Shown here one piece after another: positions 302-63,912 of a DNA stretch of 64,000 bases. The notes beneath the pieces were generated by a model. That model saw nothing but the letters and a program-made list of their open reading frames with translations, had not been told where the DNA came from and searched no databases. Source of the stretch: a virus (Duplodnaviria > Caudoviricetes); the IMG/VR virus record IMGVR_UViG_3300013121_000023, positions 32,001 through 96,000 of that record; one strand, written 5' to 3'. How positions within the stretch are numbered: position 1 is the stretch's first letter; every line of letters begins with the position of its first letter. Made by a program: the position numbers and the translations under genes.

Positions 302-1495
302 TAACGCAGCCAAGTCCTCATCCACCAAGTCTGCGCCGCGCATGATAGCGCCAGCGTAATCTTGGTAGGTGAGTCTCTTGTCCAAATCCGGGGCTGACTT
401 AGCTAGAAAAGACAAAATGTTCGACAGAGCATACCTATTGTTGCCCGAAGGTACGCTCTCCATGTCTCGCATCGGTGAATCCCAAATGTCTTTTACTCTG
501 GCTACCTCCCCCTTGCTCATCTTGGCGCTGAGCTTCTTGCTCACTGCATTCCATGTGAGCTTTTCTTCCGCCGCTTCTCTTATTGTGCTGAGCGTTTTCT
601 CTATGCTGGCTTCCCCCAACACATCTCGAACTACGTCACCAGCTGTGAGCAGTATCGTTTTTGTGTCTGATTGATACGTCTCTGGTGAGAGCCTGATGCC
701 TGATGGCAGCCTCTTACCAAGATGTACTTCCTTCATGGCTGTTTCACCAATAGCCAAGTTCGTACACCAGCACCTGATGAAGAAACCCCTTATCGAGAAG
801 GCTCCAACGCCGTAATCAGAGTGTCGCATCTCCAGCCCAAACAGCATGGGCTCCCCAGGTATTGGTGTGAAGATCTTAGGCACAATGACCCTCGCAGAAA
901 ATCGGAGGTCCGAGAACAGAGCTTCTGAAGCCACTGCTCCGATCTTCCCTATCTCGGAGACAATGCCGGCCAGTAGCTCATCGCTATTGAACGGCTTGTA
1001 GTGGTTGGACAGGAACGCCTTTATCTCAGGATGCCCGGCGCCTGCTGACATGCGAACCAACCAGTCTTTATTCAATCCGGGGTTTTTATCGAAGTATTTA
1101 TTGAGCGTGTGACTAAGCAACTCTTTTTTCGCTGTAGTCCACTCGTCTTCCTTGTCACCCTGAAGAAGACTGTTGATGTATACCTTTGGGATTCCCGCGA
1201 CAGATGCTATCTGTTGGATAGCGTTTCTGTGCATAGGATACTCATTTGTTGAGTTTCTCTTGCTGGCCAGTATAGACTGTCCACTCACCCCAAACTGAAG
1301 TTCTGACCCCTTAACAACATGATCTCTTGGTACGTCTTTCTTAAGTTGCTCCACAAGTGAAGCAAATTGCGCTTTCCCAGTGTCGATCTGCATCTGCATC
1401 TTTGCGATGGCGTAATCCTCTGCTTTTTTGTTAGCCTGCGCATAATCTTCTGTTCCATGATGAAAACGGTTTCCAACAACGTCGTTGTTCAACAT
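302..1495 (-). CDS. DUF932-like phage/plasmid protein (ends at TTA 302-304; 263 under standard code)
   Basis: Motifs AIQQIASVAGIP, AFLSNHYKPF and HSDYGVGAFSI...CWCTNLAI recall DUF932; first in-frame TTA lies 5 nt before the terminator. Confidence 0.65.
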
Positions 1496-1537
1496 TTGAT
1501 CTTAGTCCTTTTTTAGCGAAGACTTCTTCGCACGGCT

Positions 1538-2448: not shown

Positions 2449-3171
2449 ATGGCAACTGTTTCTGAATGGATTGCTCTTCTGCAAAGCGGTAAGTACCAAG
2501 GCGTCGGCGGCGCCAGCAAGTCTCTCGGGAAGACAGCTAGCAGCAGCGGCTGGTCGGATAAGGAGCGGGCCAAGGCAAAGACTGCTCTTGACACCTACTT
2601 TGGCGGTGATGCCAAGGAGGCAACAGCTGTTGAAGCTGAGCCTGCCCCCGTGAAGATCATTCACGCCAAGACTTCTGAAGGTAAGGCGGTACCTGTTAAC
2701 AAGACTCTTGCCGCACCAAAGGCAAAGAGGGGCAGCTCAGGTACTATGCTAGAGCAGCAGGCTGCTAATGCCGGTGCCAATATGGTACCTGGTATCAAGG
2801 CGCTTACAGATGCAGACATGGTTGCTCGACTGAATGCGTTTTCGAGCGATCACAACCTGCATCAGACCTTGGCCGTTTTGAATATGGCCATTTCGCCAGT
2901 TGGTGCTGGTGGGAAGTCTCTGGCCGACATGTACCCGGCAATAATGGACAAGGTTAGAGAACTGGCGCACAAGGTACTGGACAGGCAGCTGTCTGTTGGC
3001 AGTACTTCTATTCCTGCGGCTTCTAGCGCAGAAGCCAGCACAGCTTCAGTAGTCGAGGCAGCTGAAGTAGAGATAGACGAGGATGCCGTGCCTGCCGTGC
3101 CTGCTACCGCTTTTAGGCGTCAGCCTAAAGAAGAGGTAGTAGACGCTGAGGACGCTGCTGGTGACCTGTTA
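2449..3171 (+). CDS. Hypothetical protein sharing N-terminal domain with 1943..2419 (ends at TTA 3169-3171; 3180 standard)
   Basis: LLQSGKYQ..ASKSLGK vs LLKDGRYQ..ASKALGR; acidic tail; TTA just before terminator. Confidence 0.7.
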
Positions 3172-6731: not shown

Positions 6732-7150
6732 CTAACGTTATCTACATGTGTCCCAAGTGCAATAGTTCAATGGTTGAGGTATCTCCATTGATAGGCGCTA
6801 ATTCCACATGCAAAGGATGTGGTTTCGAAAGTTCGGCTTCTTCTTTTGTAGCTGTTCCAGTAGATGAAAGAACGCATGCCGAAGCTACTGAATTTTATAA
6901 AAAGGAGCTGAGGAGAAAGTTCCTTCTTTTGTTTTCAGCTAGCTGCGCTGTTCCTGTAGCCAGATTTCTTAGAGAGATAGGGCTGCTTAAAAACGGTACT
7001 AAAGAAGAGATGACGAACCAACTAGCTGGATATATTAAAGCTATGGGCGAGGCCATGTTTGTTGCCATGTTTAAACACATGGAAGAAGAAGAACGGCTAA
7101 AGTCTGAAGCAAGGGTAAAAGGTATCGACAATAAAAGAAAGGCAAACTTA
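6728..7150 (+). CDS. Zinc-ribbon protein (ends at TTA 7148-7150; 7159 standard)
   Basis: CPKC...CKGC; TTATG overlap with next ATG. Confidence 0.65.
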
Positions 7151-7824
7151 TGGAACTAAGTCTAAAGTTGATCAGCGTAGACGAGTCCTTTGTACTTAGT
7201 GAAGGGAAAGTATTGCCTGTTATAACACTGGAGTTGCCAGGCGGCATACTGATTAGGTCTTACGTATCTAAAGAAACCCAGGGCATTTTGACTGAGTTGA
7301 TACGTACGGTCTACAGTATACAAAGAGAAGAAGAAGTAGCGCATAGACAAGAAGAGCTAGATCAATATTCAGCACCACCAGAACCAAATGCGTTTTGGGG
7401 CGAGGTACAAGCTCGCAGGGCAGCCCAGGAACAACCATCCAGAAGACCAGCTCCAGCTCCGCCCCCAGTACCTGAGCAAGACACCTCGTATATGACAGCC
7501 CCTATGCCCATATCAGAGCTTATGGCTAGCAAACATAGGGAACGTCAGCAGCAAGCCGAGATGGCCCCGCCTATGGTCTTTGTACCAGGGCAATCACCAT
7601 CTGAGCCGTATTCGTACGTACCTGATGAAGAGGCCAATCAGCCTCCGCAGCCAATGGCTAGAGCCAGGGTTATACCTCAGCCAGAGAAAGCAAGAGGTCC
7701 GGGCCCTAGACCGTTTATGCCGCCCATGTCTGGAACCAGACAAATCATGACTGACGAAAAAGGTAACCCCATATTGCAGCACACTGCCGACGTAGCCAGT
7801 GTGCTGGGGGATTCAGACCTATTA
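7150..7824 (+). CDS. Pro-rich hypothetical protein (ends at TTA 7822-7824; 7869 standard)
   Basis: TTATG overlap with next ATG removes a 15-codon run-on tail. Confidence 0.65.
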
Positions 7825-9615: not shown

Positions 9616-9866
9616 GGCTTGTAGAAAGAACGCAAGAGGGTCGTATAGAACTATGCTGGATGTGGCTACCTCATTGGTTGGCTACAAACAGAAACGCTCT
9701 GACTCAACTAGAGCAGGCTGTAGCAGCCAAGCTAGTTGGTCTAGAAATGACCGACGCTACTCTAGATCTAGCGCATGATCTAGTTGCTGACTCTCTACAA
9801 CGTCAGTACCCAGATGTAAAAGGTCTTCGTAACTATCTGGATTCTCTAAAATTTGTGAGCCTATTA
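9612..9866 (+). CDS. Hypothetical protein (ends at TTA 9864-9866; 9890 standard)
   Basis: GTGA start overlap; TTATG stop-start overlap. Confidence 0.6.
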
Positions 9867-10898: not shown

Positions 10899-11375
10899 AT
10901 GAGTCTTATACGTCAGCTGACCACAATGGGTGGGTTTGAACTAATACGCGATGACTCATCCGGCCCCGTAGCTAAGTATGTTGGTAGAGTTCTGAATAAA
11001 AAAGGAACTCCCGAATACGACAAATGGCTTTTCTGCGTTCACGCTGTGCTAAATACCTGCAACAACGTAGGTAGGGCAAACAACGTGGATATCTCTCAGC
11101 AAATATACCTAGATGACGATAACAAGCTCAGGTATGTTTGGCGGATAGTTTTGAAGGCCGACAGCGAAGAAGATCTGAGAGCGGTTCTAAATAGTTTGTC
11201 TGAGGCGGTAAAGAACATACCTATACCTAAGTCCGCTATAGAGACTACTACTGTGGCTACCGGTAGAAGAACTATGCAGGGTCAAAACGATCGCGGTAAA
11301 GGTGTCGCACTTACTGGTCAGGCTAGAGTCGGTCCCTTGCTTCAGGGACAGCTAGCAGCTTCTAGGAGAATGTTA
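10899..11375 (+). CDS. Hypothetical protein (ends TTA 11373-11375, immediately followed by TGA)
   Basis: TTATGA junction with next gene. Confidence 0.65.
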
Positions 11376-15166: not shown

Positions 15167-15167
15167 G

Positions 15168-15214
15168 TAGCTAAAGAAGAACACTAAATGGCAGGCTCTC
15201 TCAGCCTGCCATTT
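15168..15214. terminator. Bidirectional terminator with TTTAGCTAC tail on minus strand
   Basis: 12-bp stem aaatggcaggct/agcctgccattt (15186-15214) between convergent genes. Confidence 0.85.
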
Positions 15215-15220
15215 TGTTTT

Positions 15221-16081: not shown

Positions 16082-16107
16082 ACTCAACACCTGCCTAGGT
16101 CGGTACT

Positions 16108-18901: not shown

Positions 18902-18903
18902 GA

Positions 18904-46875: not shown

Positions 46876-46884
46876 GGAGACGCC

Positions 46885-47954: not shown

Positions 47955-48168
47955 TGCTGCGCTTGTACGTGTAATAAACAACAATTGCACAATCATGGAA
48001 GTGCTTAGAAGCTTCACCTACGGGGATCATGTAGCCAACTCCTTGATGGTTTTGGCCTACCATGCCGAAGTAGGCATAGAAGGATTCGGAGCATGGGACG
48101 AAAGAGCGAACAGAGAGCAGAGGCTAGAGGTAATAAAAAAGGCTATAGACTCTGATTCTCAATGGTAG
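47926..48168 (+). CDS. Small hypothetical protein
   Basis: Ends just before terminator; WDE...R.EVIKKAI. Confidence 0.55.
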   Translation: MSSNRRPVLDAALVRVINNNCTIMEVLRSFTYGDHVANSLMVLAYHAEVGIEGFGAWDERANREQRLEVIKKAIDSDSQW

Positions 48169-48172
48169 TTAC

Positions 48173-48230
48173 GGTCCCCCGAAAGGGGGACCACCTATTA
48201 TAGCTACTTAGTTGTTTACTTTTTTAGCTA
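48173..48230 (+). terminator. Terminator hairpin with TAGCTAC tails
   Basis: ggtccccc-GAAA-gggggacc; tagctac at 48201 and ttttttagctac at 48220-48231. Confidence 0.8.
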
Positions 48231-48249
48231 CCTGTCGTACATATTTAGC

Positions 48250-50005: not shown

Positions 50006-50024
50006 GAGGTAAGAGGGTCTATAA

Positions 50025-51092: not shown

Positions 51093-51112
51093 AAAGTTTT
51101 TTCCGTTCAGTC

Positions 51113-51136
51113 AAATACCCGCGTATGCGGGTATTT
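51113..51136 (+). terminator. Hairpin, probable terminator
   Basis: aaatacccgc-gtat-gcgggtattt. Confidence 0.6.
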
Positions 51137-51151
51137 TGCTTTGGAGGATGC

Positions 51152-52087: not shown

Positions 52088-53387
52088 GTGTGCTCGTACT
52101 CTGGTTGTGGGAATGATACCGCAAAACCACTTTGACACGAAGTACAGGGACGCCCTTGAGTCCAGTTGCTTCAAAGTCGTAGCCTACATAGATGCTGACA
52201 GGCACATGGGAGGTATAAGTGCGTATAGGGATGAATGTGATGTCGTAGTAATCCTAACGGGTCTGATGGCCCACAACACAGTCGAACAAATACACAGTAA
52301 AATCAAAGGGTGGCGGCAAACAATAGTGAATCTACCAGCTAGTGTGTCTCGCTGGGTCGCTATATTGCAGCCAATCATAAAAGGCATGGAATTGACAGCA
52401 CCCGCATCTGTTGCAGAAGCCAAACCCGTAAGCATCACACCGCCGCAATTGCCACCTGTCTACGTACCTCCACCTTCGCCAAGTAAAGTAGAAGTTACGC
52501 CAGAACCAGAGACTGCAAATATGGAAGAGAACGTTGATGAAGAAAAAGAAGATGAAAGCGGTGAAGATGAAAGCAAGGAACTCATAGAAAAGATATTCGA
52601 AGCATACAAAAAGGCGTGCCTGTCTGGTATAGCCGACAACATACTAGCTTATGTAAACCCGATAAAGAAATTCCCCACCAAACATGCCGTAGACATGTTT
52701 GTTCGGAGGCGGTGTGATAAGGGTTACGGAACCAAAGAATTTAAGGATTGGCTAGACAACGAAAGGAGGTATGCATTCGGAACAGGAGGGAGAAGGAAGA
52801 GCATTTCCACATCATCAGTGCCCGCCAAAAATGATGAGGTAGAACTGGCTAATCTGTACGCTACGGAAAATGAAAGCCTGAAGAAAAAGCTAAAAGAAGC
52901 AGAAGATGGCCTTGAATCAATCAAGGCCAAATACGAAGCCAAGATCAGAGAGTGCTTGGATTTGCAAAATGAGCGAGCACTTCTCACAGAAGACCTCAAT
53001 AAGATCACGGAAGACTTTGAGTTGACCAAAGGGACAATAGCGAAGATACAGGAAGAAAATACTTCGCTACGTAGTTCGCGCAGCTTGTTCGACGAAAACA
53101 AGTTGCGTCAAGAAATAACCTCCCTACGTGGCGAAGTAGAGAGGTGGTCGAAAGACGCCCGCGGATATGAGGTATTGGTCAAAGAACTCCAGAAAGACGC
53201 CTTGGAGAAGGATAGACTCATCCTATCACTCAGAGAGGCGGCTGACTCCAAGAGCGGGGTCATAGCCATGCTTGAGGCAAAACTCAAGCAGGAGCAGCCA
53301 CAAGCTCCACAAGCTCCACCAACCATGGTGGAAATAAAGCTCAACGTACCACTTACACACGAGCTTATGCAGATTCTGTTGAAGTGA
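52068..53387 (+). CDS. DUF2325-like N-terminal domain plus long coiled coil
   Basis: CDVVVILTGLMAH; heptad-rich C-terminal half. Confidence 0.55.
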   Translation: MSSHQGKCARTLVVGMIPQNHFDTKYRDALESSCFKVVAYIDADRHMGGISAYRDECDVVVILTGLMAHNTVEQIHSKIKGWRQTIVNLPASVSRWVAILQPIIKGMELTAPASVAEAKPVSITPPQLPPVYVPPPSPSKVEVTPEPETANMEENVDEEKEDESGEDESKELIEKIFEAYKKACLSGIADNILAYVNPIKKFPTKHAVDMFVRRRCDKGYGTKEFKDWLDNERRYAFGTGGRRKSISTSSVPAKNDEVELANLYATENESLKKKLKEAEDGLESIKAKYEAKIRECLDLQNERALLTEDLNKITEDFELTKGTIAKIQEENTSLRSSRSLFDENKLRQEITSLRGEVERWSKDARGYEVLVKELQKDALEKDRLILSLREAADSKSGVIAMLEAKLKQEQPQAPQAPPTMVEIKLNVPLTHELMQILLK

Positions 53388-53394
53388 ACATTTG

Positions 53395-53424
53395 TACGCC
53401 GCCCTACGTGGCGGCGTATTTTTT
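53395..53424 (+). terminator. Intrinsic terminator
   Basis: tacgccgcc/ggcggcgta stem plus T-run. Confidence 0.8.
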
Positions 53425-53552
53425 AAGTACGTGACATAATGTATGTATGGCTCTCGTACTTTTCTGCGTGGCTGTGTTTTTTGGGCTGGTGTCTGATTTG
53501 GCCAGACTTGTGTTTAAGTCGCTGGGCATGAAAATGGCTCTGGAGGTAATGG

Positions 53553-54014
53553 ATGGCTTCTAACAGGTTCAATTGGAAGAGGGTACAGGATGTAAAGAAA
53601 GTAACGACTACTGTAGCCGAAGCGGCTATAGACTCAGAAATAAAGGGACACCCTAAAAGAAAAGTAATAGATTACGTACCAGGCAATAACTGTCTGTTTG
53701 CAGTGCTGTCTTGTGGTCATAGGATTAAAATGTTTTCCAAACACGAAGATCCTCGTAAGGATTTTACTTGTGTTAACTGCACTATAGACAAGCAAACAGC
53801 TGTTCAACATATACGAAATTTGCGACCAATCAGTATCCTACATTTGGCTAGCCTTACTGACTTGCCGTATGACCACTTGAGAACACTATTGTATGAAGGA
53901 GGTATAGAATACGCTAACAGTGAATACGCTAACAAGATAATGATACCAGCTGCATCAGTAATCAGCTATCTATCCAAGATAGGCATACTAAAGGGTCTAA
54001 TAGTTGACGTGTTA
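53553..54014 (+). CDS. Zinc-finger plus putative HTH protein (ends at TTA 54012-54014; 54053 standard)
   Basis: LSCGH...CVNC; TTA abuts the GGAGG RBS of the next gene. Confidence 0.6.
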
Positions 54015-54024
54015 GGAGGCTTGG

Positions 54025-54627
54025 ATGGTATCTGTAAGAAATGTACTAGATAGCGTAAATGCGTGCGACGACGCAATTATGTGGGCTGAGGAATGTTTCG
54101 GTAATCGTATATATGAAACAGATACAGATGTAATAGAAGATACCAAAACACTATGGGATAGCTGCCATAGACCAGAATGGCTACTTTACATAATACTAAA
54201 AATAGACGCCCTATTGGCTTATAGAACTGTGTTGTATCTAGTTCAAATGCAGTTCTATAAAGTTATAAATACAAACAATAAAGATTACGATCTATACGCT
54301 ACGATGATGAGCAGGTGCGAAGAGCATTTGAGAGATACAAGCTATGCACCGACCAGTAAACTAGCATCAGCTGTGCCTAACTATCATGAATTTGTGCCAG
54401 CTTGGGCCCACTCTGTACTGTGTACTGATGGATTTAGGCCTTTTTACGTATTCATGCATAAGTACGAACACGAATTTATTTGTGTATTTCACGAAAGAGT
54501 ACATGGACTTAGTGTTCTCTGGGAATGTGTTTACGGTAAAGATGCAAGTAAAAAATTGGCAGATACGATACGAGAAATGTTTACCTTTGAATTTGTATTT
54601 GACAACGTAGTAAATACACACCGTTTA
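54025..54627 (+). CDS. Hypothetical protein (ends at TTA 54625-54627; 54780 standard)
   Basis: NACDDAIMW...LWDSCHRPEWLL; the TTA stop removes a 116-nt overlap with the next gene. Confidence 0.65.
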
Positions 54628-54664
54628 TTGTTGTGCCTCCGTTTTAGTATGTTATGTTTGCCGC

Positions 54665-54922
54665 ATGGTAGACATACATACCGTTCTGACCCGTCTCAGA
54701 GACAGAGGTTGGTCTGTGCGCATCTTCTCAAGCTCAGAAGGCTGGGATGTGGAAATAAGCAAAGTTCTGCTGGCCTATAAAGCCCTTGAAGGAAGAGGTA
54801 AGCACGCCCAGCTTATGGAGGCGGTACATAGCGCCGTTTCCGATGTTAAGAGGCAGCTTAGGACCATCTCAGATCAGCTCCCAGAAATGCTGGTGTCCAT
54901 AGATAGTCTTTTCTCTGAGTAA
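54665..54922 (+). CDS. Hypothetical protein
   Basis: 85-aa ORF. Confidence 0.6.
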   Translation: MVDIHTVLTRLRDRGWSVRIFSSSEGWDVEISKVLLAYKALEGRGKHAQLMEAVHSAVSDVKRQLRTISDQLPEMLVSIDSLFSE

Positions 54923-54946
54923 AAATAAATAAAAGCTGGCTATAAG
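54923..54946 (+). promoter_or_regulatory. Phage promoter motif
   Basis: AAATA-N11-GCTATAAG. Confidence 0.7.
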
Positions 54947-54980
54947 AGTTTGGGGTACTGCAACCTCAAGGAGTTTTCTC

Positions 54981-55631
54981 ATGGAATCTGAAGCTAAGAT
55001 AGAGAACAACAAAGAAATCCAGGCGGCGTCCATCAGGCTGGCCAAAAGTCTAATGGATGCGGCGTCAATAAAATTCGGCGTCTTTGACGCCAAACATTAC
55101 AAGGCTGCCTGTAGTGTCATCAATGAAATGGTCGCTGTTGGATTGATTACGGAGAAAGTAGCTGTAGTGAAAAAGGCTCAAATAGTGAGTCAGTTTACAG
55201 GTGTAGACCTACTCAACGGCGTGCGCCTTGATGATGTTATAAACCTACCGAGCGCTGAGTTGCTGCTTGGGCCCAAGGGGTCGGTAGCGGCGTTGCCAAA
55301 GAACCCGGCGCCAGAAAAAACATCTACGTACATAGCCGTGCCGATGGTGGATAGCACTGGTCATTATTCGGCCATAAGGGCGGCTCGTACACTATCTTCA
55401 GTATCGTCCAATGGCCCTGTTTCCCCGAAGTGGGTCTCCACTGCCGCGAGGCAACTAGCGATTTTTGGCAAGGATGGTTGGGGCATGTACGTCAGTCTCG
55501 AAAGCACTGACGTGAAGGGGGAGACGATAAAGCATTGGAAGTACAACAAGAAAGCGGTTCTTGAGTTGGCCAGACATAGGTTTGGTAAAACTTTCAAAGA
55601 AGAAGATTTTGTGTGGGATGACAAGCTATTA
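54981..55631 (+). CDS. Antirepressor-like DNA-binding protein (ends at TTA 55629-55631; 55658 standard)
   Basis: C-terminal YSA..AA..L...SPKWV...A......G......W.YN..A resembles phage antirepressor tails; aaggag RBS. Confidence 0.5.
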
Positions 55632-55673
55632 ACGGCTGTTGACTACCGTATGTTTTAGGCGCACTCTTGATGC

Positions 55674-55862
55674 ATGTTGGTACCAGAACAACAAGCAGTT
55701 TCAGTGCGCCATATAACTTGCTACCCCGATGGGGGTATAAAGCAGGTTACGAACATAGACGTGCCAATCGCTGTAGTGGCCGGAATACTAACGGTCATTA
55801 CAGCGATTGTTGCTGCTGTAGTATCATCTAGAAATCAACCGCAGCAACCAGCTAATTTTTTA
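55674..55862 (+). CDS. Small membrane protein (ends at TTA 55860-55862; 55892 standard)
   Basis: One TM segment IAVVAGILTVITAIVAAVV. Confidence 0.55.
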
Positions 55863-55875
55863 GCTACCGAGTACC

Positions 55876-58800
55876 ATGGCATATACAAGTGAAGAAGTAA
55901 GGGCGGCTGTACAATCTCTTCTACTCAGCGAATTGAGAAGAGGTTTCAACAGCCTCGGCATCAGAGATGTTGGTCAGACATTTGCTGATTTTCAAGAAGT
56001 CACAGCCATTACTCTTCTCTTGCAGCCAGAAGGTATATTTTACGTAGCTTATCTAGCTTCACAGCGCCTGTTGTCAACAGTTAGATCGCTGTATTTGAAG
56101 ATAGATGAGCTTGCAACTGTGACGAGATACGCTGATAGGAAGGTTATTCCTGTAAAGGACATAACCACCTTGGCAAATGCTCGCGCAGCTTTGTCCGAGT
56201 TGGCTTCGGCTATGGCTAGCAGGTCATCCGTACCTAAATCCATAACCAGCATACCGGCGTATACGCGGTTCAGCTCCAACACCTCGGACTTTGTTAACAG
56301 TCAGGCGTCTTCTATACGGGATGGTAGCGATATAGTACCTACCCCAGACGAAGCCAGGATGCGTATACCTGCTCTTATAGAAGAAGTTTTTTCTCTTTAC
56401 GCCACTGTAATAACAAGAGCAAAGTTCATATCAAATCTTCTTACAAATTATACGAATCTAGACCTACCCAGAGTTGTCTCACTAGGCGTTATAGAACGTT
56501 CAAGAGATAAAATAGACGAGATATATGAAACTTTGGACAATCTCTCTGACTCAGAGAGACTTGCCGTACTCAGAGAATCGGTTTTGGGTATAGCCGCAAC
56601 AAGAGCTGTAGTTAAGCAGCTCGGTGGTTTTGTTTCGCCCACGACTGAAAAGAAAATAAACGGCGCTTTGGTGCCGTACAGTGATGCCACGCATACTCTA
56701 ACGAGACCTTTTATAGAATGCGACATAAAGGGACCGTACGCTCTTACAGAAACGTCGAACAAACTATCTTTCTCGTTGGACGGAGCAACCTATGTCGTTC
56801 CACTAGGAACATCGTATTTCGCAGAAATAATTGGTGGTGTAATAGAAACATATGAAGTCAACCTTACGAATAACGTATTTAGATTTTATGTTGACTCAAA
56901 TCTAGCCAGTGTTCTGGTAAGTGTGACGCTGACAACTGGTGTTGCCAGAACGGCTGAACAGATAGCAGCTGATGTAAACGCCGTAAGCGCTGCTTATGAC
57001 GTTATGTGCATCCCCAGGTTTAGGAGCACCGTAAAGGCACAGGCTACTGTATCTGTTGTCAGTACTGGTCCTACTTCTGGCACAGTTACAGTATCTACAA
57101 CAGGAGTAGACTTCGTAGCTCTTGGTATTGTACCTGGGGACAAGCTTGTATTTCTTAATACTACGAACAGCTACTACGTTTGGACTGTAACTGCCAGGAC
57201 ATCTACAACTATAGACTTCACTGGTAGCGTTGCTGTTGTAGCCGCCACGTCATGTACGTGTCAGGTCGGTGCTTCTGGTAATTTCGTAGTGGCTCTGAAA
57301 GCTATAAACAGCGCATCTATCGTCAATAAAAAGAGCATTCAGATAGATTCTTCTGTGAGTAACACCGCCATAGGTATTCTAGGGTTTACAGCTGGTGCCT
57401 TTGCTGAGTCTGCCCCCGTGTACCCAAAGGATGTAGTAGGTACAATCAACAGAGTGACGGCCAGGATCGAGGCTGCTCCTGTGTTTGAGGCTACTTACGA
57501 AGACATACCAGGTAGAACAGATGCGACTGATAGGACCAAGTTCATAGCATCAAGTCTGTACTCAGAAGGAACTATAACACCTACTGGTACCGGGTTGACC
57601 TTCGTACCTACTGATCCCGGTAAGAGCGCGATAGATGCCGGTGTGGCTGCTGGATACGTGCTGATAGTGAGGGATGGTCCTGGTGTTGGCGAGGTATACC
57701 TAGTTACCTCTGTATCAGGTACTGGAGTGGTTTCAGCTACAGGCGTACCTCCCACGGTAGCTGGGATAGGTACAGTAGATATAGGATTTGCTTACCCTTC
57801 TCTAGAAGACTACGAGATTCTCATATCTTCTGGTCCACTAGCCGGTTCTTACATTGTTCGTAGGAACACAGCTGTGCCTACTTTTGAGCTAGAGCTTCGT
57901 GACGACACTCCGATGGCCACATACCAAGATACTGTTGGCAGGCCTATCGAAGTTGTGTGTTCCATAGGTAAGAGCGCAGTATCTTTTACCTCAAAGAATG
58001 AAACGATATCTTCTTCTATAGGTTGTTCTTCTGGTACGGCTTTTTCACTCCTGTTTACAACGTCTCAGCCGGTAGTGAACGCTACGACCAAATGGTTCAG
58101 ATACGATGCTTCTCTGAACTCCATAAAGGTTGGAGATGTGGTGGCGTACTATGACACCAGCATACAGACACCCAGTGTCTCATATGTGGTGACCAGAAAG
58201 GAGGAAGAGGTGCTTTCTCTTTCTCCCGAGGGTCCGGCGAATGTGAACATGTCCGTGTCTTCATCGGCTACGCTTCCTTTTGCTCTTGTGACGCACGGCA
58301 TGTACCAGCCATACCTAGCCGTCAAAACGGCCATAGATTCCTGGCTACTGTCGATACCCGATGATAACGATTTGTTCGAGCTTGAGCGCTTGTACAACAT
58401 TGTTCACAAGAACAGCAATCCTACAGCCAGTGACGTAAACAACGCTGTCAACAAGCTACTTGGTACAAGCGGTACCTATGAACTAGGTAATCTCGTGTCT
58501 AAATCGATAGCAACGGCTGTTGGTTCCGATGCAACCAAGTCTCTTGAGTACATTTTGTCCAGTTATGCCGTTGAGCACATACCTGATGTAGATGCTTTGC
58601 TGAGGGCGCTACTCCAGCAGGGCTGTGATAGAGCGTATGATTTGCTCATCACGGCTGATGTAGTGTCTTATTTCGGCATAGACATGGAAACAGCATCGTA
58701 TGCTGGGGCTATTACATCAAGTGCTCGCGCAGTAGTTAGAGAGACGCTGCCTACTAGCTCTACTGGTGTCGGCAGAAGATATGCTCGCGTCATAGCTGAG

Positions 58801-58887
58801 TCCGAGTCACCTGACTATGAGTACACTTCTGATGACTCCGGGCCCTCAAAGCAAGGCGGTACAGACGCTGATTTGGAGGAGACATGA
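55876..58887 (+). CDS. Large virion structural (baseplate-associated) protein
   Basis: 1,003 aa; beta-rich Thr/Ser/Val centre with DF...G..PGD motifs shared with the baseplate-J-like gene. Confidence 0.6.
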   Translation: MAYTSEEVRAAVQSLLLSELRRGFNSLGIRDVGQTFADFQEVTAITLLLQPEGIFYVAYLASQRLLSTVRSLYLKIDELATVTRYADRKVIPVKDITTLANARAALSELASAMASRSSVPKSITSIPAYTRFSSNTSDFVNSQASSIRDGSDIVPTPDEARMRIPALIEEVFSLYATVITRAKFISNLLTNYTNLDLPRVVSLGVIERSRDKIDEIYETLDNLSDSERLAVLRESVLGIAATRAVVKQLGGFVSPTTEKKINGALVPYSDATHTLTRPFIECDIKGPYALTETSNKLSFSLDGATYVVPLGTSYFAEIIGGVIETYEVNLTNNVFRFYVDSNLASVLVSVTLTTGVARTAEQIAADVNAVSAAYDVMCIPRFRSTVKAQATVSVVSTGPTSGTVTVSTTGVDFVALGIVPGDKLVFLNTTNSYYVWTVTARTSTTIDFTGSVAVVAATSCTCQVGASGNFVVALKAINSASIVNKKSIQIDSSVSNTAIGILGFTAGAFAESAPVYPKDVVGTINRVTARIEAAPVFEATYEDIPGRTDATDRTKFIASSLYSEGTITPTGTGLTFVPTDPGKSAIDAGVAAGYVLIVRDGPGVGEVYLVTSVSGTGVVSATGVPPTVAGIGTVDIGFAYPSLEDYEILISSGPLAGSYIVRRNTAVPTFELELRDDTPMATYQDTVGRPIEVVCSIGKSAVSFTSKNETISSSIGCSSGTAFSLLFTTSQPVVNATTKWFRYDASLNSIKVGDVVAYYDTSIQTPSVSYVVTRKEEEVLSLSPEGPANVNMSVSSSATLPFALVTHGMYQPYLAVKTAIDSWLLSIPDDNDLFELERLYNIVHKNSNPTASDVNNAVNKLLGTSGTYELGNLVSKSIATAVGSDATKSLEYILSSYAVEHIPDVDALLRALLQQGCDRAYDLLITADVVSYFGIDMETASYAGAITSSARAVVRETLPTSSTGVGRRYARVIAESESPDYEYTSDDSGPSKQGGTDADLEET

Positions 58888-59210
58888 GCACAAAAGAAGA
58901 CAACAAAAAGAATGATGACGCCTTTGAGCTTCGCCGTAAGGTTGCAAATGCTTACGGTTTCGTCGTTGGCCAGCAGTCGAACCAATCCTTTGCCGCAACC
59001 ACACTTGAAGAGTGTATCGATCGCCGTATCGAGGATATTGAGGGCACTCAGCAAGATGGCAGGCCGAACATACTTGAAGAGATATCTAGGATAGAAAATG
59101 ACTTCAAGTCAGCTGTCGAAAAGATACGCAGCTTGCCACCCGATTACTTCAAGGCGCCGAAGGATAACTTGCCGGTGAACACAGAAGAGGGACAAGCTGA
59201 AGAAACATGA
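58884..59210 (+). CDS. Hypothetical protein
   Basis: ggagga RBS, ATGA-coupled. Confidence 0.65.
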   Translation: MSTKEDNKKNDDAFELRRKVANAYGFVVGQQSNQSFAATTLEECIDRRIEDIEGTQQDGRPNILEEISRIENDFKSAVEKIRSLPPDYFKAPKDNLPVNTEEGQAEET

Positions 59211-59222
59211 TAACCTTTCGGT

Positions 59223-59873
59223 GTGTTTGACCTACAAATCTGCTACCCACAACAGTTGGTGGACCTTCGCCGTATGCGCGAAGTCCCAGGTCTTCCTGTT
59301 CGCACACTGGAGGTCATAGGCGAGGACTTCAGAGCGGTAGAGGAAGTCATTGTGAATGGCTATCCATCTCCCAGCTATGTGAACGTATCTGACAAGAAGA
59401 TACTTGTGCAGGTACCAGATGAGGCCGCTCTTCAAAGAATCACAAGTGTCGAAGTTCTGTCCAACAACTTCGTACTCAGCCCACGTAGTAAACTCAGGTT
59501 CAAGCTGAACAAGCAGCCTCGCAGATGCAATAGGATGCTTTTGCTTGTACAGATGTTTCTCAAGATTTTGTTGACCACTCCTGGCAGAGACAGGTTTGCC
59601 AAAAAGATTGGTGGTGGTCTCATGAGAAACATAGGCGCCGTGTTCAGTAAGAACAACGGTGGGAGTATTTTGGCGGACGTAATCATAACAGTAGATCAAA
59701 CTACCAAGCAGCTTCTTGCCTTGCAGAGAACTCAAAACCTGGCACCAGAAGAGAAACTTCTGACGGCCAAGGTAGAATCAGCCTACTTCAGCAAGACTGA
59801 TGGTGGCTTGGTTGTGCAGATCAATTTGAAAAACCAGGCGGGTAAGACTGGTTATTTGAACGTGGAGATCTGA
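59223..59873 (+). CDS. Baseplate wedge protein, gp25/GpW-like
   Basis: LVQMFLKILLTTPGRD...GGGL; directly before the J-like gene. Confidence 0.7.
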   Translation: MFDLQICYPQQLVDLRRMREVPGLPVRTLEVIGEDFRAVEEVIVNGYPSPSYVNVSDKKILVQVPDEAALQRITSVEVLSNNFVLSPRSKLRFKLNKQPRRCNRMLLLVQMFLKILLTTPGRDRFAKKIGGGLMRNIGAVFSKNNGGSILADVIITVDQTTKQLLALQRTQNLAPEEKLLTAKVESAYFSKTDGGLVVQINLKNQAGKTGYLNVEI

Positions 59874-59874
59874 T

Positions 59875-62800
59875 ATGGCATCGAAAGACCTAGCTCAATA
59901 CATCAGGGAGCGCATGGCTCTCTTTGACAGCACTATCGATACATCATCTGGTAGTGATTTCGATGCCAAGGTAGTGCAGCCTACAGTGTCTCGTCTCGGG
60001 GCAGATCCATTCGTCATGGATTTGCAGTTGTTTGCCAAGACGAGACTACAACAGGAGCATCCTACGTATTTCGTTGAAGAGGGAAGCGCTCTAATAGACC
60101 TTCTGATAAAGCCGTTCTCTGTATTTCTGGAACCTCTCATAAGAGAGAACAGAAGAATAGCTAATGGTCAGAGTCTTACGGCGCCAGAGCTTCTAACTAC
60201 AGAAGAAGCAGAAGCTTTGGGTTCTCGCACTTATTCTGTTCGCGACACTGGTGACATATCGAAGGGTACAGTTCGTCTGTACTTTACTTCTCCCAGGTCC
60301 GTTTCTGTGAGTGGTTCCAACTACGCATTTACAGCAGATGGTCTCAGGTACTTCCCAACACAGAGCCAATCGATTCGTTCCGAGGAGATGATTACGAATG
60401 TAGAGAATGGTCTCTACTACTTTGATGTTCGTGTACAAGCTGAGCAGGCTGGTAGCGGTTACAACATCAATGCTGGGAAGATAGTTGGTATCACTGGGAT
60501 AGCCGGCGCGGTAAAGACAACAAACAAGGTGAAGTTCAGAGGTGGTCTACCTGCCGAGAATCCATCCGAGTTTATATCTCGTGTACAGCAAGAGGTGACA
60601 GACAGGTCACTTGCTTCAGACCGTGGTGCCAAGTACAGGATTCTAAATAATTTCCCAGAGGTGCAGTCAATTGCATTGATTGGTTATCAAGATCCTGAGA
60701 TGCAGAGAGACATCATCACAGGCGGCGGTCTTGGTAAGTCACTGGCATCAGGAGTACTTGCAGCGTCCACAGATGATGGCGAGGCTGGTCTTTACACGAG
60801 ACGAATACTGCTCGATGCATCCGAGGTGGACCTAGTAGCTCTTGTTGGTTCTACTGGTTCGGCGCCGGATGGATATGTAATTACTCTCTACAATGCTTTC
60901 GAGATTGGCTCATCTGAAAAGGTGAGAGATTTGAAAGTAAGGTCGATCATCAGCAGTCAGCTACTTGAGGTAGAGGAGCAGGTGCTCAGGAGGTATGTAA
61001 CCGACATACCTTGGACTCTGAGAAAGAGAGAGCTTACTCTTTCTTCGTTGCCTGGCGGGATTGTATTTGGTGAAGGTGGTGACTTCATCACCACGTCTCC
61101 ATCTACGGAGATACACATAGGCGGTATGTATGACGCTTATGTGAAGGGTGAGTCTCCAAATGAGTCTTCACTCGCGATAGGCGAGGTGCGGACGAGGACA
61201 CCTCTTTTGTCTGGGATAGCGGCGACTGTACCTGTGGCTGGGTCTGTGTCTCTTGATGACCTGGTTCTCGGTACGAACTACGCGAGTGTGGACAAGGAGT
61301 ATGAGTACATCAGTGACTCGTACTTGAAGAGGTACGTGCTTGAGGTATCTGGTGACCCAGCGGTCGCGGGGACGTACAAGATAGTGTCCGTCACACAGCC
61401 GACGATACCCGGGGACTCCCCAATCTTTACGCTAATACCGACAATTTCAGCTGTTGCAGGCAATTTTGCCTGGAAGCTGATTGACACAATCGATGTAGAC
61501 CTGTTTGAGCCAAAGGTTTTCAGGCTTTCAAACACGGATTTGCAAACGGTTGGTTCTTCTACGATTGTAAAGTCTGGGAGTGGTATAGACTTCGATGCAT
61601 ATGGGGTGTCTGCTGGGGATACACTTCGTATTCTTTCTGGTGGTGAACCAGGTGATTACACAATCACGGCTATAGCTCCATTTTTTAATACGCTTACTTT
61701 GGATAGGTCACTTACGCAAAACAACTCAGGTCTTTCTTACGAGATTTTCAAAAAGAATTCAAATGGCGGAATCAAGCTGCCGCTTGTGAGAATCAAGAGA
61801 GTAGAACTTCTTGACACATCAAGTCAGCCGACTGGTTCTACTATTCCCTATGCAAAGGCTTTGAAGGCTAAATCACTTGGATTTGCGAACGTAGCACAAG
61901 GTACGAAGGTGAGTGTGACGGATGCCTCACTTGGTATTGTAGGCATACCCATCACTGGGCCTGTCGCGGGTCTAAATGGGCTACCTCTCAGAATCAAATT
62001 GGGTGTATCCGGTTCTGATTTCAATTCGACTACATACGGTACTCTTGTTTCTGTTTTCTTTACGGGAGCTTCTCTTACACTTGCGCAAATCGTCGAACAG
62101 ATAAACGATGGTTTGGTAGCTCTGAACTATCCACCGTTGGCCGTTGTTGTGGATGGAGACAGACTGGGTATTTTGCCATATCGAGGTGGGTGCTGTGTCT
62201 TTCTTTCCGGCAATGCTCCATCAGGTGCATACAGTAATTTCCCTGCCGTATTGACCGCACTCTTCGGTAGCGCCACATACAAAGGAACAACAAGAGACAT
62301 CAGGTCTGCCTATGTTTCTGGTTTGACTGGCCGGTGGTCTTCATCGACTATTTCTCCGGTTATTGACCCGACCATAGATGCAGCCGATGTTTTGAATGGG
62401 TATAACCCAAAGGCCGTTCCTGTTTACAAGGTCACGACAAGAGAACTGACCAATGATGTTTTGGAAGTGAAGGTTGGTGGTGACTTCAATCCACAAGTCG
62501 ATGCCTCGGTCAATGTGGGTTCCAGGTCTCTTGGTACAGCCAGGGTTTACTTCCTTGAGCCGACCAGCGCCGAGTTTGACCAGGAGACAAGGCTAACGGC
62601 GAGCCTGGAAGACGGTTCAGAGGTCACTTACCTGCCAGACCCTACGGTTGATGCCATCCGTATCCCAGCACCGCCTTATACGGCAGCTCCAAAGGATGGT
62701 TCGACAACTGCTCTCGGTACCACCCTTACCTCGGCAACAACTGACTTCATATCAAAAGGCATACAGCCCGGAGATAAGCTGCAAATAACCTATGTGCCCA

Positions 62801-63912
62801 TCATAGGAACAGTTGCTTTGACGGAGGAAGTACTCAATCTAGCTCTTACTCAAATCGTTGTTTCTCTGAATGGTGGAACACCTAAAACGATAACTCTCGT
62901 AAATGACAGCACATCGATACTGGCTACATCGGTAACCAGAGCAGGTGTCGCTTCTCAAATAAACTCTTCTCTCGGTGTGACTGTTGCTTACATCAACGCG
63001 CTTACAAACAAGCTGGAGTTCGAAGCCGACATAGCTGTTTCTGTACTGGAAACAGGTTCGGCCAATACTCTTCTTGGGTTCTCTACTCTTTCACCTCAGA
63101 GCAACACGGCTACGAATGCGGGTCTTTACAAAATCTCGGCTGTGAACACAAACACAGTCACCATCCAAGACAGCATTTTTGCCGTAACTGCCCAGAGACA
63201 ACACTTCCTTGTATACCGCGCTGAGACCCAGCGTATTTCGTCCACTGAAATGGCGAATAACAAGGAAAACGGCTTTTACTATTTCGATTTGGAAGTCGTC
63301 AGCGAGGGTGTTGGAAACAGAAACAACATACCTTCCGAGACCTTCATGGATATCGAAAAGTACAGGTCTGATGGGTATTGGCTCGAAACCAATTCCGAGT
63401 CTTTGACCTTTTCAACAGCCGAGAGACCTACCCTTTTTCTATCCAGAACGATGTTGGAAGTTGGGTCTTCGGATGATTACGCAAACGTGAGACAACTTGA
63501 AGGTACATCGATACAGATTGTTTACGAGCACTCTGAACTTGTATCATCTATCCAGTCATTTCTCTTGGCAGATGATGAGAGAGTTCCAAATGCAAATCCA
63601 CTGGCGAGACATTTGATACCTCATTATGTGAGTTTCAATTTGTCTTATACTGGTGGACCACAGGCAAATACTGTTCAATCCAAGTTGATTGATTACGTAT
63701 CTGCCAGCGAACCAAATCAGGCTATCGAAGTGGCGGCTATTGAATCGATGGCGAAACAAGCTGGAGCTACAACGGTCAAGAGCCCAACGACTGTTTACGC
63801 TGTCATTCACGATATCGATAGACGAGTTTATCTGGAGGCATCGCAAGACAGACTTTCGATAGGCCGTCTTGCTTCCTTTTTCGCCGATTCAATAACAGCT
63901 ACGAGAGGGTAA
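59875..63912 (+). CDS. Baseplate J / gp6-like wedge protein with large insertions
   Basis: GSALIDLLIKP, VQAEQAGSGYNI, FRGGLPAEN..EFISR. Confidence 0.75.
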   Translation: MASKDLAQYIRERMALFDSTIDTSSGSDFDAKVVQPTVSRLGADPFVMDLQLFAKTRLQQEHPTYFVEEGSALIDLLIKPFSVFLEPLIRENRRIANGQSLTAPELLTTEEAEALGSRTYSVRDTGDISKGTVRLYFTSPRSVSVSGSNYAFTADGLRYFPTQSQSIRSEEMITNVENGLYYFDVRVQAEQAGSGYNINAGKIVGITGIAGAVKTTNKVKFRGGLPAENPSEFISRVQQEVTDRSLASDRGAKYRILNNFPEVQSIALIGYQDPEMQRDIITGGGLGKSLASGVLAASTDDGEAGLYTRRILLDASEVDLVALVGSTGSAPDGYVITLYNAFEIGSSEKVRDLKVRSIISSQLLEVEEQVLRRYVTDIPWTLRKRELTLSSLPGGIVFGEGGDFITTSPSTEIHIGGMYDAYVKGESPNESSLAIGEVRTRTPLLSGIAATVPVAGSVSLDDLVLGTNYASVDKEYEYISDSYLKRYVLEVSGDPAVAGTYKIVSVTQPTIPGDSPIFTLIPTISAVAGNFAWKLIDTIDVDLFEPKVFRLSNTDLQTVGSSTIVKSGSGIDFDAYGVSAGDTLRILSGGEPGDYTITAIAPFFNTLTLDRSLTQNNSGLSYEIFKKNSNGGIKLPLVRIKRVELLDTSSQPTGSTIPYAKALKAKSLGFANVAQGTKVSVTDASLGIVGIPITGPVAGLNGLPLRIKLGVSGSDFNSTTYGTLVSVFFTGASLTLAQIVEQINDGLVALNYPPLAVVVDGDRLGILPYRGGCCVFLSGNAPSGAYSNFPAVLTALFGSATYKGTTRDIRSAYVSGLTGRWSSSTISPVIDPTIDAADVLNGYNPKAVPVYKVTTRELTNDVLEVKVGGDFNPQVDASVNVGSRSLGTARVYFLEPTSAEFDQETRLTASLEDGSEVTYLPDPTVDAIRIPAPPYTAAPKDGSTTALGTTLTSATTDFISKGIQPGDKLQITYVPIIGTVALTEEVLNLALTQIVVSLNGGTPKTITLVNDSTSILATSVTRAGVASQINSSLGVTVAYINALTNKLEFEADIAVSVLETGSANTLLGFSTLSPQSNTATNAGLYKISAVNTNTVTIQDSIFAVTAQRQHFLVYRAETQRISSTEMANNKENGFYYFDLEVVSEGVGNRNNIPSETFMDIEKYRSDGYWLETNSESLTFSTAERPTLFLSRTMLEVGSSDDYANVRQLEGTSIQIVYEHSELVSSIQSFLLADDERVPNANPLARHLIPHYVSFNLSYTGGPQANTVQSKLIDYVSASEPNQAIEVAAIESMAKQAGATTVKSPTTVYAVIHDIDRRVYLEASQDRLSIGRLASFFADSITATRG

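What the first reader, a model, noticed from the sequence alone, without database searches (positions are those of the whole stretch)
302..63912. UUA (TTA) appears to be reassigned from Leu to a fourth stop codon
SEEN, absence: my manual scan found no in-frame TTA in the five largest ORFs (12989, 28856, 34925, 55876, 59875; 5,312 codons) or in the body of the AT-rich island genes I checked, although CTA, CTT and TTG are common. SEEN, position: where an in-frame TTA occurs, the first one sits where a stop is expected. (a) Eight TTATG stop-start overlaps analogous to TAATG, at 7148, 7822, 9864, 11373, 19567(-), 39853, 43053 and 44510. (b) Five cases 5-9 nt upstream of a terminator hairpin, at 302(-), 3169, 21743(-), 24935(-) and 33193(-); in four of these the standard-code ORF would run into or through its own terminator. 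(c) Immediately before the next RBS, ATG or promoter, at 34920, 42024, 45804, 54012, 54625 and 55860, plus near-terminal 16900(-) and 55629. (d) At convergent junctions 20953(-) and 63910(-). Two other in-frame TTAs (18905, 24883) lie upstream of the better-supported starts. TAA, TAG and TGA are still used as stops. KNOWN: UUA-stop exists in the Thraustochytrium mitochondrial code (table 23). The phage recodings I know of are stop-to-sense (TAG, TGA), and I know of no sense-to-stop case in bacteria or phage. INFERENCE: either the phage or its host terminates at UUA, through an altered release factor or loss of tRNA-Leu(UAA) plus ribosome rescue. No release factor or tRNA is in this window. The alternative is extreme TTA avoidance (bldA-like), but that does not explain the positional enrichment.
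Basis: partly seen in the sequence, partly recalled or inferred. Interest (0 to 1): 0.97.

Follow-up and report, generated by a model that had tools for sequence, protein, structure and literature searches.

The report
Leucine codon TTA ends phage genes
In this complete 177-kb phage genome the leucine codon TTA is never used inside genes and instead sits exactly where about 29% of its proteins end, so it acts as a fourth stop signal, a change of the genetic code so far published only for mitochondria and plastids.

Summary
The window is part of a complete 177,132-bp phage (46% GC, IMG/VR record with direct terminal repeats).

- In ORFs of at least 150 aa, TTA occurs 34 times in frame but 767 and 362 times in the other two frames. 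By comparison, CTA, ATA and GTA occur 927 to 1,545 times in frame.
- Half of the in-frame TTAs lie in the last 20 codons of standard-code ORFs. For each of the other 60 sense codons the figure is 3-11%.
- With TTA read as a stop, 64 of 223 genes (22 of 89 in the window) end at TTA.
- Their C-termini then match those of orthologues in four related phages as well as TAA/TAG/TGA genes do.
- The post-TTA tails show no coding signal.
- Three standard-code "fusions" (sheath+tube, 463+297 aa, 540 aa+sigma factor) resolve into genes that are separate in the relatives.
- One relative uses TTA freely as Leu.

The phage carries tRNA-Leu(CAA) and tRNA-Leu(UAG) but no tRNA-Leu(UAA), and no release factor. 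How the peptide is released at UUA is unresolved; I favour a host-level property.

Earlier notes of this scan report the same TTA-stop pattern in several other phage genomes. I found no publication describing it in phages or bacteria.

The parts
302..304 (-). TTA ending the 397-aa gene 302-1495(-). A second in-frame TTA lies at 296-298 and a hairpin follows.
   Evidence: hairpin -19.6 kcal/mol. The tail EEEAETLPLL resembles the C-terminus of the L006 orthologue; this is the one ambiguous case.
3169..3171 (+). TTA ending the 240-aa gene 2449-3171, 7 nt before a strong terminator hairpin
   Evidence: -23.2 kcal/mol. The standard ORF would run into the hairpin.
7148..7150 (+). TTA ending gene 6728-7150; TTATG overlap with the start of 7150-7824
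7822..7824 (+). TTA ending gene 7150-7824; TTATG overlap with the start at 7824. The standard ORF would overlap the next gene by 46 nt.
9864..9866 (+). TTA ending the 95-aa gene 9579-9866; TTATG overlap with 9866-10414
   Evidence: Orthologues of 83-91 aa end within a few residues of this point.
11373..11375 (+). TTA ending gene 10899-11375; TTATG overlap with 11375-12049
16900..16902 (-). TTA ending gene 16900-17403(-)
19567..19569 (-). TTA ending gene 19567-19845(-); TTATG overlap
20953..20955 (-). TTA ending the 73-aa gene 20953-21174(-). The standard ORF would add 61 codons.
21743..21745 (-). TTA ending gene 21743-22138(-), 6 nt before a terminator hairpin
   Evidence: -17.6 kcal/mol
24935..24937 (-). 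TTA ending gene 24935-25222(-), 7 nt before a terminator hairpin
   Evidence: -24.7 kcal/mol
33193..33195 (-). TTA ending gene 33193-33615(-), 6 nt before a terminator hairpin
   Evidence: -18.7 kcal/mol
34920..34922 (+). TTA ending the 419-aa gene 33663-34922, 2 nt before the ATG of the 1020-aa gene
39853..39855 (+). TTA ending gene 39166-39855; TTATG overlap with 39855-40400
42024..42026 (+). TTA separating a 540-aa gene (40404-42026) from the sigma-factor gene (42057-42827). Under the standard code they form one 807-aa ORF.
   Evidence: Sigma70_r3 and phrog_351 match only the part after the TTA. Relatives encode the sigma as a separate 247-250-aa protein whose residue 4 aligns to codon 559. 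GGAGG and ATG follow the TTA.
43053..43055 (+). TTA ending the 70-aa gene 42843-43055; TTATG overlap with 43055-43342. The standard ORF would be 94 aa.
   Evidence: Orthologues are 72-73 aa and end at the aligned position.
44510..44512 (+). In-frame TTA at the end of ORF 44231-44512, probably overlapping the ATG of the next gene
   Evidence: TTA position. One search lists the next ORF from GTG 44506. The ATG at 44512 is inferred and was not read directly.
45804..45806 (+). TTA ending ORF 45207-45806, 17 nt before the GTG start at 45824
54012..54014 (+). TTA ending gene 53553-54014, directly followed by GGAGG and the ATG at 54025
54625..54627 (+). TTA ending the 200-aa gene 54025-54627. The standard ORF would add 51 codons.
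55629..55631 (+). TTA ending gene 54981-55631
55860..55862 (+). TTA ending the 62-aa ORF 55674-55862, inside a TTTAGCTAC motif and 13 nt before the ATG of the 1003-aa gene
63910..63912 (-). TTA ending the 103-aa gene that runs off the window end (63910-64221, minus strand), convergent with the 1345-aa baseplate gene
12989..63912 (+). The five largest genes (12989-15166, 28856-32515, 34925-37987, 55876-58887, 59875-63912): 5,312 codons without one in-frame TTA

Best explanation
In the cell this phage infects, UUA is not read as leucine. Ribosomes end translation there, so TTA is a fourth gene-ending codon beside TAA, TAG and TGA. It ends 64 of 223 genes, including sheath, tube and the probable capsid gene.

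Shown here:
- TTA is purged from gene interiors in frame 0 only.
- TTA sits where orthologues have standard stops.
- Sequence after it is non-coding.
- Reading it as Leu would fuse genes that are separate in all the relatives.
- The phage supplies tRNA-Leu(CAA) and tRNA-Leu(UAG), plus tRNAs for AUA, GUA, AGA, AAA and ACA, but nothing that reads UUA.

Inferred:
- The property belongs to the host. This is probably a bacterium without a functional tRNA-Leu(UAA), because TTA stops occur in every block of the genome, including the early-looking one, and the phage encodes no release factor.
- History: this phage family is mostly 62-69% GC, where TTA nearly vanishes. This lineage drifted to 46% GC with its own tRNAs for A-ending codons, and TTA came back only as a stop (Osawa-Jukes codon capture).
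- Release step: I favour a class-I release factor with widened reading, as in organellar RF2 with a Ser204 substitution. I put this at about 55:35 over stalling at a hungry codon followed by rescue.
For: - Frame-specific depletion: 34 vs 767/362.
- 51% of in-frame TTAs lie in the last 20 codons, against at most 11% for each of the other 60 codons.
- The 4-stop model keeps 223 genes, while any other added stop fragments the set.
- Tails: coding log-likelihood 0.026 vs 0.387 upstream, p=8.6e-8. Tail length equals the distance from a standard stop to the next in-frame stop (median 9 vs 9).
- Orthologues: among 27,081 aligned residues and 2,295 Leu, no internal TTA. C-terminal mismatch is median 2 aa for TTA genes, the same as for TAA/TAG/TGA genes, against 8 (mean 30.5) if read through, p=3.5e-5. 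Ends coincide exactly for the sheath (1036/1037), genome 3781-5622 and 140371-141597.
- About 120 sheath homologues were listed. Most are ~1030-1050 aa at full query coverage, the rest have internal insertions, and none besides our own record has the fused length.
- Relative G1 uses TTA at 151 aligned sites. 59 of these are Leu in our phage, and none of them is encoded by TTA.
- tRNA set.
- No RF-1, PCRF, eRF1 or Pth in the phage.
- TTA stops occur in all genome blocks.
- TTATG coupling in 18 of 64 cases.
- An independent assembly is identical.
- Precedent for RF2-mediated UUA termination: PMC12574857.
Against: - There are no protein or ribosome data, so termination is inferred from sequence only.
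- The host is unknown, so loss of tRNA-Leu(UAA) and an altered release factor are untested.
- One tail (window 263-301, EEEAETLPLL) resembles the C-terminus of the L006 orthologue (AEEDETLPPA), which could mean occasional read-through or a recent truncation.
- The four relatives examined do not share the trait, and no closer relative exists in the searched databases. The trait therefore rests on one lineage.
- No known bacterial RF reads UUA.
Confidence: 0.86

Rival explanations
1. UUA is an unassigned (hungry) codon and not a true stop. No tRNA reads it, ribosomes stall, and the chain is freed by rescue or drop-off pathways (SmrB/tmRNA, ArfA/ArfB, or peptidyl-tRNA drop-off and hydrolysis, perhaps helped by the phage's Pth2). 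Genes still end at TTA, but without a release factor reading the codon.
For: - The phage has a PTH2-domain gene (34.9 bits) that is absent from relatives G1 and G2.
- No release factor is encoded in the phage.
- Drop-off plus Pth was proposed for UUA in Streptomyces, where ribosomes pause at UUA (PMC10732093).
- Unassigned codons are known in Micrococcus luteus (my own knowledge).
Against: - The most abundant virion proteins (sheath, tube, probable capsid) end at TTA. Slow rescue or tmRNA tagging would be costly for these.
- There is no excess of back-up stops after TTA.
- TTATG start overlaps (18 of 64) look like ordinary termination-reinitiation coupling.
- Earlier scan notes say that amber-gated Pth2 genes with suppressor tRNAs recur in many large phages that use the standard code (unchecked), so Pth2 need not relate to TTA.
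Confidence: 0.3
2. bldA-like avoidance. UUA is still leucine but its tRNA is scarce or conditional, so TTA is avoided. The short tails after TTA are translated when the tRNA is present.
For: - UUA is rare and conditionally decoded in Streptomyces (PMC10732093).
- Most relatives of this phage have high GC.
- One tail looks conserved.
Against: - Tails have no coding signal.
- Orthologue ends coincide with TTA.
- Read-through would fuse sheath with tube, and a 540-aa protein with the sigma factor.
- No TTA occurs at any of 2,295 aligned Leu positions in a 46% GC genome.
- The phage carries a UUG-only Leu tRNA and not a UAA-anticodon one.
Confidence: 0.06
3. Artefact: systematic sequencing or assembly error (TAA read as TTA), or an edited or synthetic record.
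For: There is a single lineage and no closer relative to compare.
Against: - An error cannot remove TTA from frame 0 of gene bodies while leaving 767 and 362 copies in the other frames.
- A second assembler gives a 100% identical sequence.
- The record has direct terminal repeats and is rated 100% complete.
Confidence: 0.03

Closest known systems
UUA = stop in labyrinthulean (Thraustochytrium) mitochondria, NCBI table 23, linked to a Ser204 substitution in mtRF2a (PMC12574857)
   Same: The same codon is changed from Leu to stop, is absent from gene bodies, and is found where homologues have standard stops. The standard stops are retained.
   Different: That case is an organelle whose own tRNA and RF set is known. 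Here it is a phage in an unknown bacterial host, no RF was identified, and the phage itself carries the Leu tRNAs that leave UUA unread.
UUA/UCA = stop in peDinoflagellate plastids via a modified pRF2, and UUA/UUG = stop in Marsupiomonadales and Pseudoscourfieldia mitochondria via a modified mtRF1a (PMC12574857)
   Same: Sense-to-stop change within a bacterial-type translation system. Over a quarter of genes end at the new stop. The standard code fuses neighbouring genes.
   Different: Here only UUA is affected. TCA (567 in-frame uses, 7% terminal) and TTG (931 uses) remain ordinary sense codons. No RNA editing is involved.
Streptomyces bldA / rare UUA codon and UUA-triggered pausing or bypassing in phage phiHau3 (PMC10732093)
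   Same: UUA lacks a functional decoder in at least some cell states. Ribosomes pause at it, and phages exploit this.
   Different: There UUA is a rare, regulated Leu codon inside a few genes. Here it is never internal and ends 29% of the genes.
Stop-to-sense recoding in phages (TAG or TGA read as an amino acid, with phage suppressor tRNAs; codes 15 and 4)
   Same: A phage genome that departs from table 11 and carries tRNAs suited to its code. This phage also has a CUA-anticodon suppressor tRNA.
   Different: The direction is opposite (sense to stop). No homology-supported in-frame TAG occurs here.
Unassigned codons of Micrococcus luteus (AGA, AUA; Kano et al., from my own knowledge)
   Same: Under high-GC pressure, NNA codons and their tRNAs are lost. 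The phage tRNA set (AUA, CUA, GUA, AGA, AAA, ACA) looks like a complement to such a host.
   Different: In M. luteus the unassigned codons are simply unused and do not serve as gene ends.

Membership tests
Genetic code with UUA = stop (table 23-like sense-to-stop reassignment) | The codon is absent from conserved internal positions of genes | tested here: met
   There are 0 internal TTAs among 27,081 aligned residues and 2,295 Leu. Frame counts are 34 vs 767/362.
Genetic code with UUA = stop (table 23-like sense-to-stop reassignment) | The codon sits where homologues have standard stop codons, and downstream sequence is not conserved | tested here: met
   (median C-terminal difference 2 aa, the same as for standard stops). 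Tails are non-coding. There is one ambiguous tail.
Genetic code with UUA = stop (table 23-like sense-to-stop reassignment) | No tRNA cognate to UUA in the translation system | tested here: inconclusive
   The phage has Leu(CAA) and Leu(UAG) but no Leu(UAA). The host's tRNA set is unknown.
Genetic code with UUA = stop (table 23-like sense-to-stop reassignment) | A release factor with an altered codon-recognition region | not testable with these tools
   The phage has no RF-1, PCRF or eRF1 domain. The host was not identified.
Genetic code with UUA = stop (table 23-like sense-to-stop reassignment) | Protein-level proof that chains end at UUA | not testable with these tools
No proteomic data are available.
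bldA-type rare-codon regulation | TTA occurs inside a subset of genes and is translated as Leu | tested here: not met
   No homology-supported internal TTA was found.
Stop-to-sense recoded phage (TAG reassigned, code 15) | In-frame TAG inside conserved genes | tested here: not met
   All TAG-spanning matches were antisense artefacts. TAG-ended genes match orthologue ends (median difference 2 aa).
Stop-to-sense recoded phage (TAG reassigned, code 15) | Phage-encoded suppressor tRNA | tested here: met
   tRNA with a CUA anticodon at genome 135413-135485(-), Rfam 67.5 bits.

The most novel reading that the evidence does not exclude
The host bacterium itself terminates at UUA. That would be a free-living translation system with four stop codons, produced by loss of tRNA-Leu(UAA) under GC pressure plus a release factor that reads UUA. 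Several unrelated phages have written their genes in this code. This 46% GC phage would be the clearest case, with TTA re-emerging only as a stop (codon capture) and acting as a barrier to expression in ordinary hosts.
Probability: 0.4. Interest if true: 0.95.

Novelty: new variant of a known kind. Interest (0 to 1): 0.88.

Why it matters
- It would be a sense-to-stop change of the genetic code in a phage-bacterium system. The literature I could search knows this only from mitochondria and plastids. PMC12574857, dated October 2025, calls the plastid case the first outside mitochondria.
- Because this genome is 46% GC, the absence of TTA cannot be put down to base composition, which makes it a clean test case.
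- Table-11 annotation is wrong for 29% of the genes. The public protein collection already holds a false 1315-aa sheath-tube "protein".
- A new code option is needed in phage gene callers.
- The code would limit which hosts can express the phage, which bears on host prediction, on natural "genetic firewalls", and on recoded laboratory strains.
- Finding the host should reveal how a bacterial ribosome ends translation at UUA.

Tried and rejected
A genome-contig scan found relatives only in two MAG bins (Myxococcales, Anaerolineales). Both loci are 63-66% GC with too few TTAs to judge, and binning is weak host evidence. The Atlas look-up of the dCTP deaminase gave no useful taxon. Run and sample accessions appear in no held paper.
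- Cultured relatives. The nearest cultured phages are too distant to help, at 26% identity, and a nucleotide search found nothing.
- Phage-encoded release machinery. No RF-1, PCRF, eRF1_1, eRF1_2 or bacterial Pth was found. Pfam on 30 proteins around the tRNA region found no translation factor. A GGQ motif scan gave eight hits, none RF-like in context. The 244-aa GGQ-bearing ORF next to Pth2 had no Atlas match.
- +1 slip to a standard stop at UUA-G/A (an idea from PMC10732093). Rejected, because the base after TTA is T in 50% of cases and A or G in only 33%.
- TAG recoding. Rejected.
- Failed methods. A first tblastn screen was swamped by antisense ORFs of the high-GC relatives and was replaced. 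Low-threshold ARAGORN runs gave only noise.
Full report
**Context.** The window is bases 32001-96000 of a single 177,132-bp virus record. The record has direct terminal repeats, is rated 100% complete, and is 46.1% GC. It is a contractile-tailed phage: it has a tail sheath (phrog_279), a Baseplate_J protein and a sigma factor.

**Observation, window.**
- In a greedy standard-code ORF set for the window (20,860 codons), TTA occurs 45 times, against TTG 405, CTT 417, CTA 413, CTG 325 and CTC 203.
- The five largest ORFs (5,312 codons) have none.
The one exception is the TTATG context at 44510, which I inferred and did not read directly.

**Observation, genome.**
- In ORFs of at least 150 aa, excluding the first and last 20 codons, TTA occurs 34 times in frame. 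It occurs 767 and 362 times in the other two frames. CTA, ATA and GTA occur 927, 1,545 and 1,246 times in frame.
- The residual 34 are artefacts of taking the longest ORF. They lie either within the first few dozen codons, upstream of the real start, or at the junction of two fused genes.
- 51% of all in-frame TTAs fall in the last 20 codons. The range for the other 60 sense codons is 3.4-10.8%, giving z of about 33.

**Gene model.**
- With TTA as a fourth stop, the genome still gives 223 genes covering 95%. The standard code gives 224 genes and 96%.
- Making any other sense codon a stop fragments the set into at least 281 genes.
- Stop usage becomes TGA 78, TTA 64, TAA 54 and TAG 27. In the window it is 35, 22, 26 and 6 of 89 genes.
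- TTA stops occur in every block of the genome. This includes the AT-rich minus-strand island of small genes at window 15-29 kb.

**Tails.**
- For the 35 TTA-ended genes with at least 8 codons before the next standard stop, the in-frame coding score of the tail is 0.026 per codon. The same length upstream scores 0.387 (Wilcoxon p=8.6e-8).
- The tail length distribution (median 9 codons) equals the distance from an ordinary stop to the next in-frame stop (median 9; p=0.76).
- The sequence after TTA therefore behaves as non-coding, and there is no excess of back-up stops.

**Comparative test.** Four relatives at about 45-55% protein identity were fetched:

| Relative | GC | TTA use |
|---|---|---|
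| G1 (L003, L007-L012) | 52% | frequent, as Leu |
| G2 (L004, L013-L022) | 62% | rare, internal |
| L005 | 62% | rare |
| L006 | 69% | rare |

- G1 uses TTA freely and evenly as Leu: 81 in 23 kb, and 151 aligned sites. Of these, 59 are Leu in our phage, and none is encoded by TTA.
- Across 80 ORFs, 27,081 aligned residues and 2,295 aligned Leu, only four in-frame TTAs fall inside any alignment. All four lie within 0-10 residues of its end.
- In several genes the alignment ends exactly at the residue before TTA and at the last residue of the orthologue. The sheath aligns over 4-1036, with TTA at codon 1037, against proteins of 1029, 1051 and 1152 aa. Genome 3781-5730 has TTA at codon 614 and a 35-codon unmatched tail. 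Genome 140299-141630(-) has TTA at codon 420 and a 23-codon tail.
- Window 42843-43127 gives 70 aa against orthologues of 72-73 aa, but 94 aa under the standard code.
- For 22 TTA-ended genes (43 pairs), the C-terminal length difference to the orthologue is median 2 and mean 4.8 aa. This matches TAA (2/4.8), TAG (2/3.8) and TGA (3/5.2) genes. If read on to the standard stop it becomes 8/30.5 (p=3.5e-5).
- About 120 sheath homologues were listed from the 5.8-billion-protein collection. Most are ~1030-1050 aa and cover the query fully. The rest carry internal insertions, and no other entry has the fused length. Only our own record is listed as a 1315-aa sheath-tube fusion.

**Fusions.** Three standard-code ORFs join genes that are separate in every relative:
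- sheath + tube;
- a 463-aa + 297-aa pair;
- in the window, a 540-aa protein + the sigma factor (40404-42827, TTA at 42024, then GGAGG and ATG at 42057).

**One complication.** After the two TTAs of window 263-1495(-), the ten remaining codons read EEEAETLPLL. This resembles the L006 orthologue's C-terminus AEEDETLPPA.
- The same bases form a terminator-like hairpin.
- By my own inspection, a gap-free alignment of the pre-TTA end to L006 is also possible.
- I regard this as chance or a recent truncation, but it could mean some read-through.

**Artefact.** An error process cannot clear one frame only. A Logan assembly of run SRR26835457 is 100% identical over 5,948 bp spanning the sheath TTA.

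**Mechanism: what the phage carries.**
- It encodes ten tRNAs: Lys-UUU, Val-UAC, Met-CAU, Thr-UGU, Ile-UAU, Arg-UCU, Leu-CAA, Leu-UAG, Tyr-GUA and a CUA-anticodon suppressor. Eight of the ten score 48-70 bits against Rfam's tRNA model. The three anticodon loops I read by eye, Leu-CAA, Leu-UAG and the suppressor, are as stated.
- These tRNAs match its favourite codons: ATA is 60% of Ile, and CTA, GTA and AGA are the top codons for their amino acids.
- Carrying a UUG-only Leu tRNA, and not a UAA-anticodon tRNA that would read both UUA and UUG, fits selection to keep UUA unread.
- The phage has no RF-1, PCRF, eRF1 or bacterial Pth domain.
- It does have a PTH2-domain gene (genome 113083-113382) that itself ends at TTA and is preceded in frame by TAG. 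Earlier notes of this scan say such amber-gated Pth2 genes with suppressor tRNAs recur in many large phages that use the standard code (unchecked). I therefore do not weight it heavily.

**Mechanism: where the property lies.**
- TTA stops are present in all gene blocks and in the most abundant virion proteins.
- The ability to end translation at UUA must therefore exist from the start of infection and be efficient. This points to the host.
- The precedent is bacterial-type RF2 with a Ser204 substitution in two independent UUA-stop organelle lineages (PMC12574857).
- The alternative is stalling at an unassigned codon followed by rescue or drop-off, as discussed for Streptomyces UUA (PMC10732093). 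It remains viable.
- A +1 slip onto UAG or UAA is excluded, because the next base is T in half the cases.

**History (inference).** Most of the family is 62-69% GC with almost no TTA. This lineage is 46% GC and carries tRNAs for A-ending codons. TTA returning only as a stop fits codon capture.

**Novelty.**
- Full-text searches for sense-to-stop changes, UUA stops and phage codes found only organelle cases and stop-to-sense phage recoding.
- Earlier AI notes of this scan report the same TTA-stop pattern in other windows of this genome and in several other phage genomes, among them a 435-kb soil megaphage and a 150-kb soil phage. I did not check those.

Noticed in passing
genome 135413-135485 (-), outside the window (L002:13415-13486): A well-formed tRNA with anticodon CUA (amber suppressor, Rfam 67.5 bits), although no conserved gene has an in-frame TAG and 27 genes end at TAG.
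   Followed up: partly
genome 112507-113382 (+), outside the window (L023:931-1806): A PTH2-domain ORF (99 aa, ending at TTA) lies in frame directly behind the TAG stop of a 188-aa ORF. It could be made by amber read-through or from a GTG start. It is absent from relatives G1 and G2.
   Followed up: partly
window 259, 3204, 15167, 21699, 22192, 22640, 23008, 24892, 33150, 48223, 55859 and others: The motif TTTAGCTAC has 12 exact copies and 44 with at most 1 mismatch, against 21 expected. It follows terminator hairpins in intergenic regions, mostly on the minus strand of the 14-25 kb island. It contains TTA and TAG in two frames, and often supplies the 'standard' stop of ORFs that really end at TTA upstream.
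   Followed up: partly
whole genome: Codon usage strongly favours NTA and other A-ending codons that match the phage's own tRNAs (ATA 1,697 vs ATC 576 and ATT 565; CTA, GTA and AGA are the top codons). This suggests a low-GC phage in a host poor in these tRNAs.
   Followed up: partly
window 40404-42827: The 807-aa ORF read by another first-stage note as a two-form sigma fusion is split by the TTA at 42024. The sigma factor (256 aa) is a separate gene, as in the relatives.
   Followed up: yes
whole genome, gene junctions: TTATG stop-start overlaps are much commoner (18 of 64 TTA stops) than TAATG (4 of 54) or TGATG (6 of 78). The reason is unknown.
   Followed up: no
window 263-301 (-): The ten codons after the double TTA encode EEEAETLPLL, similar to the C-terminus of the L006 orthologue, and also form the terminator hairpin.
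   Followed up: partly
genome 135521-136186 (-) and 116989-118050 (+): There is a dCTP deaminase-like gene (93 bits) and a weak cytidine/dCMP deaminase-like match (E=0.001, below the Pfam cut-off). These may indicate nucleotide-pool or DNA-base modification functions.
   Followed up: no
L003-L006, L024, L025: This phage family spans 46-69% GC. Two relatives sit in MAG bins labelled Myxococcales and Anaerolineales, which is weak host evidence.
   Followed up: partly
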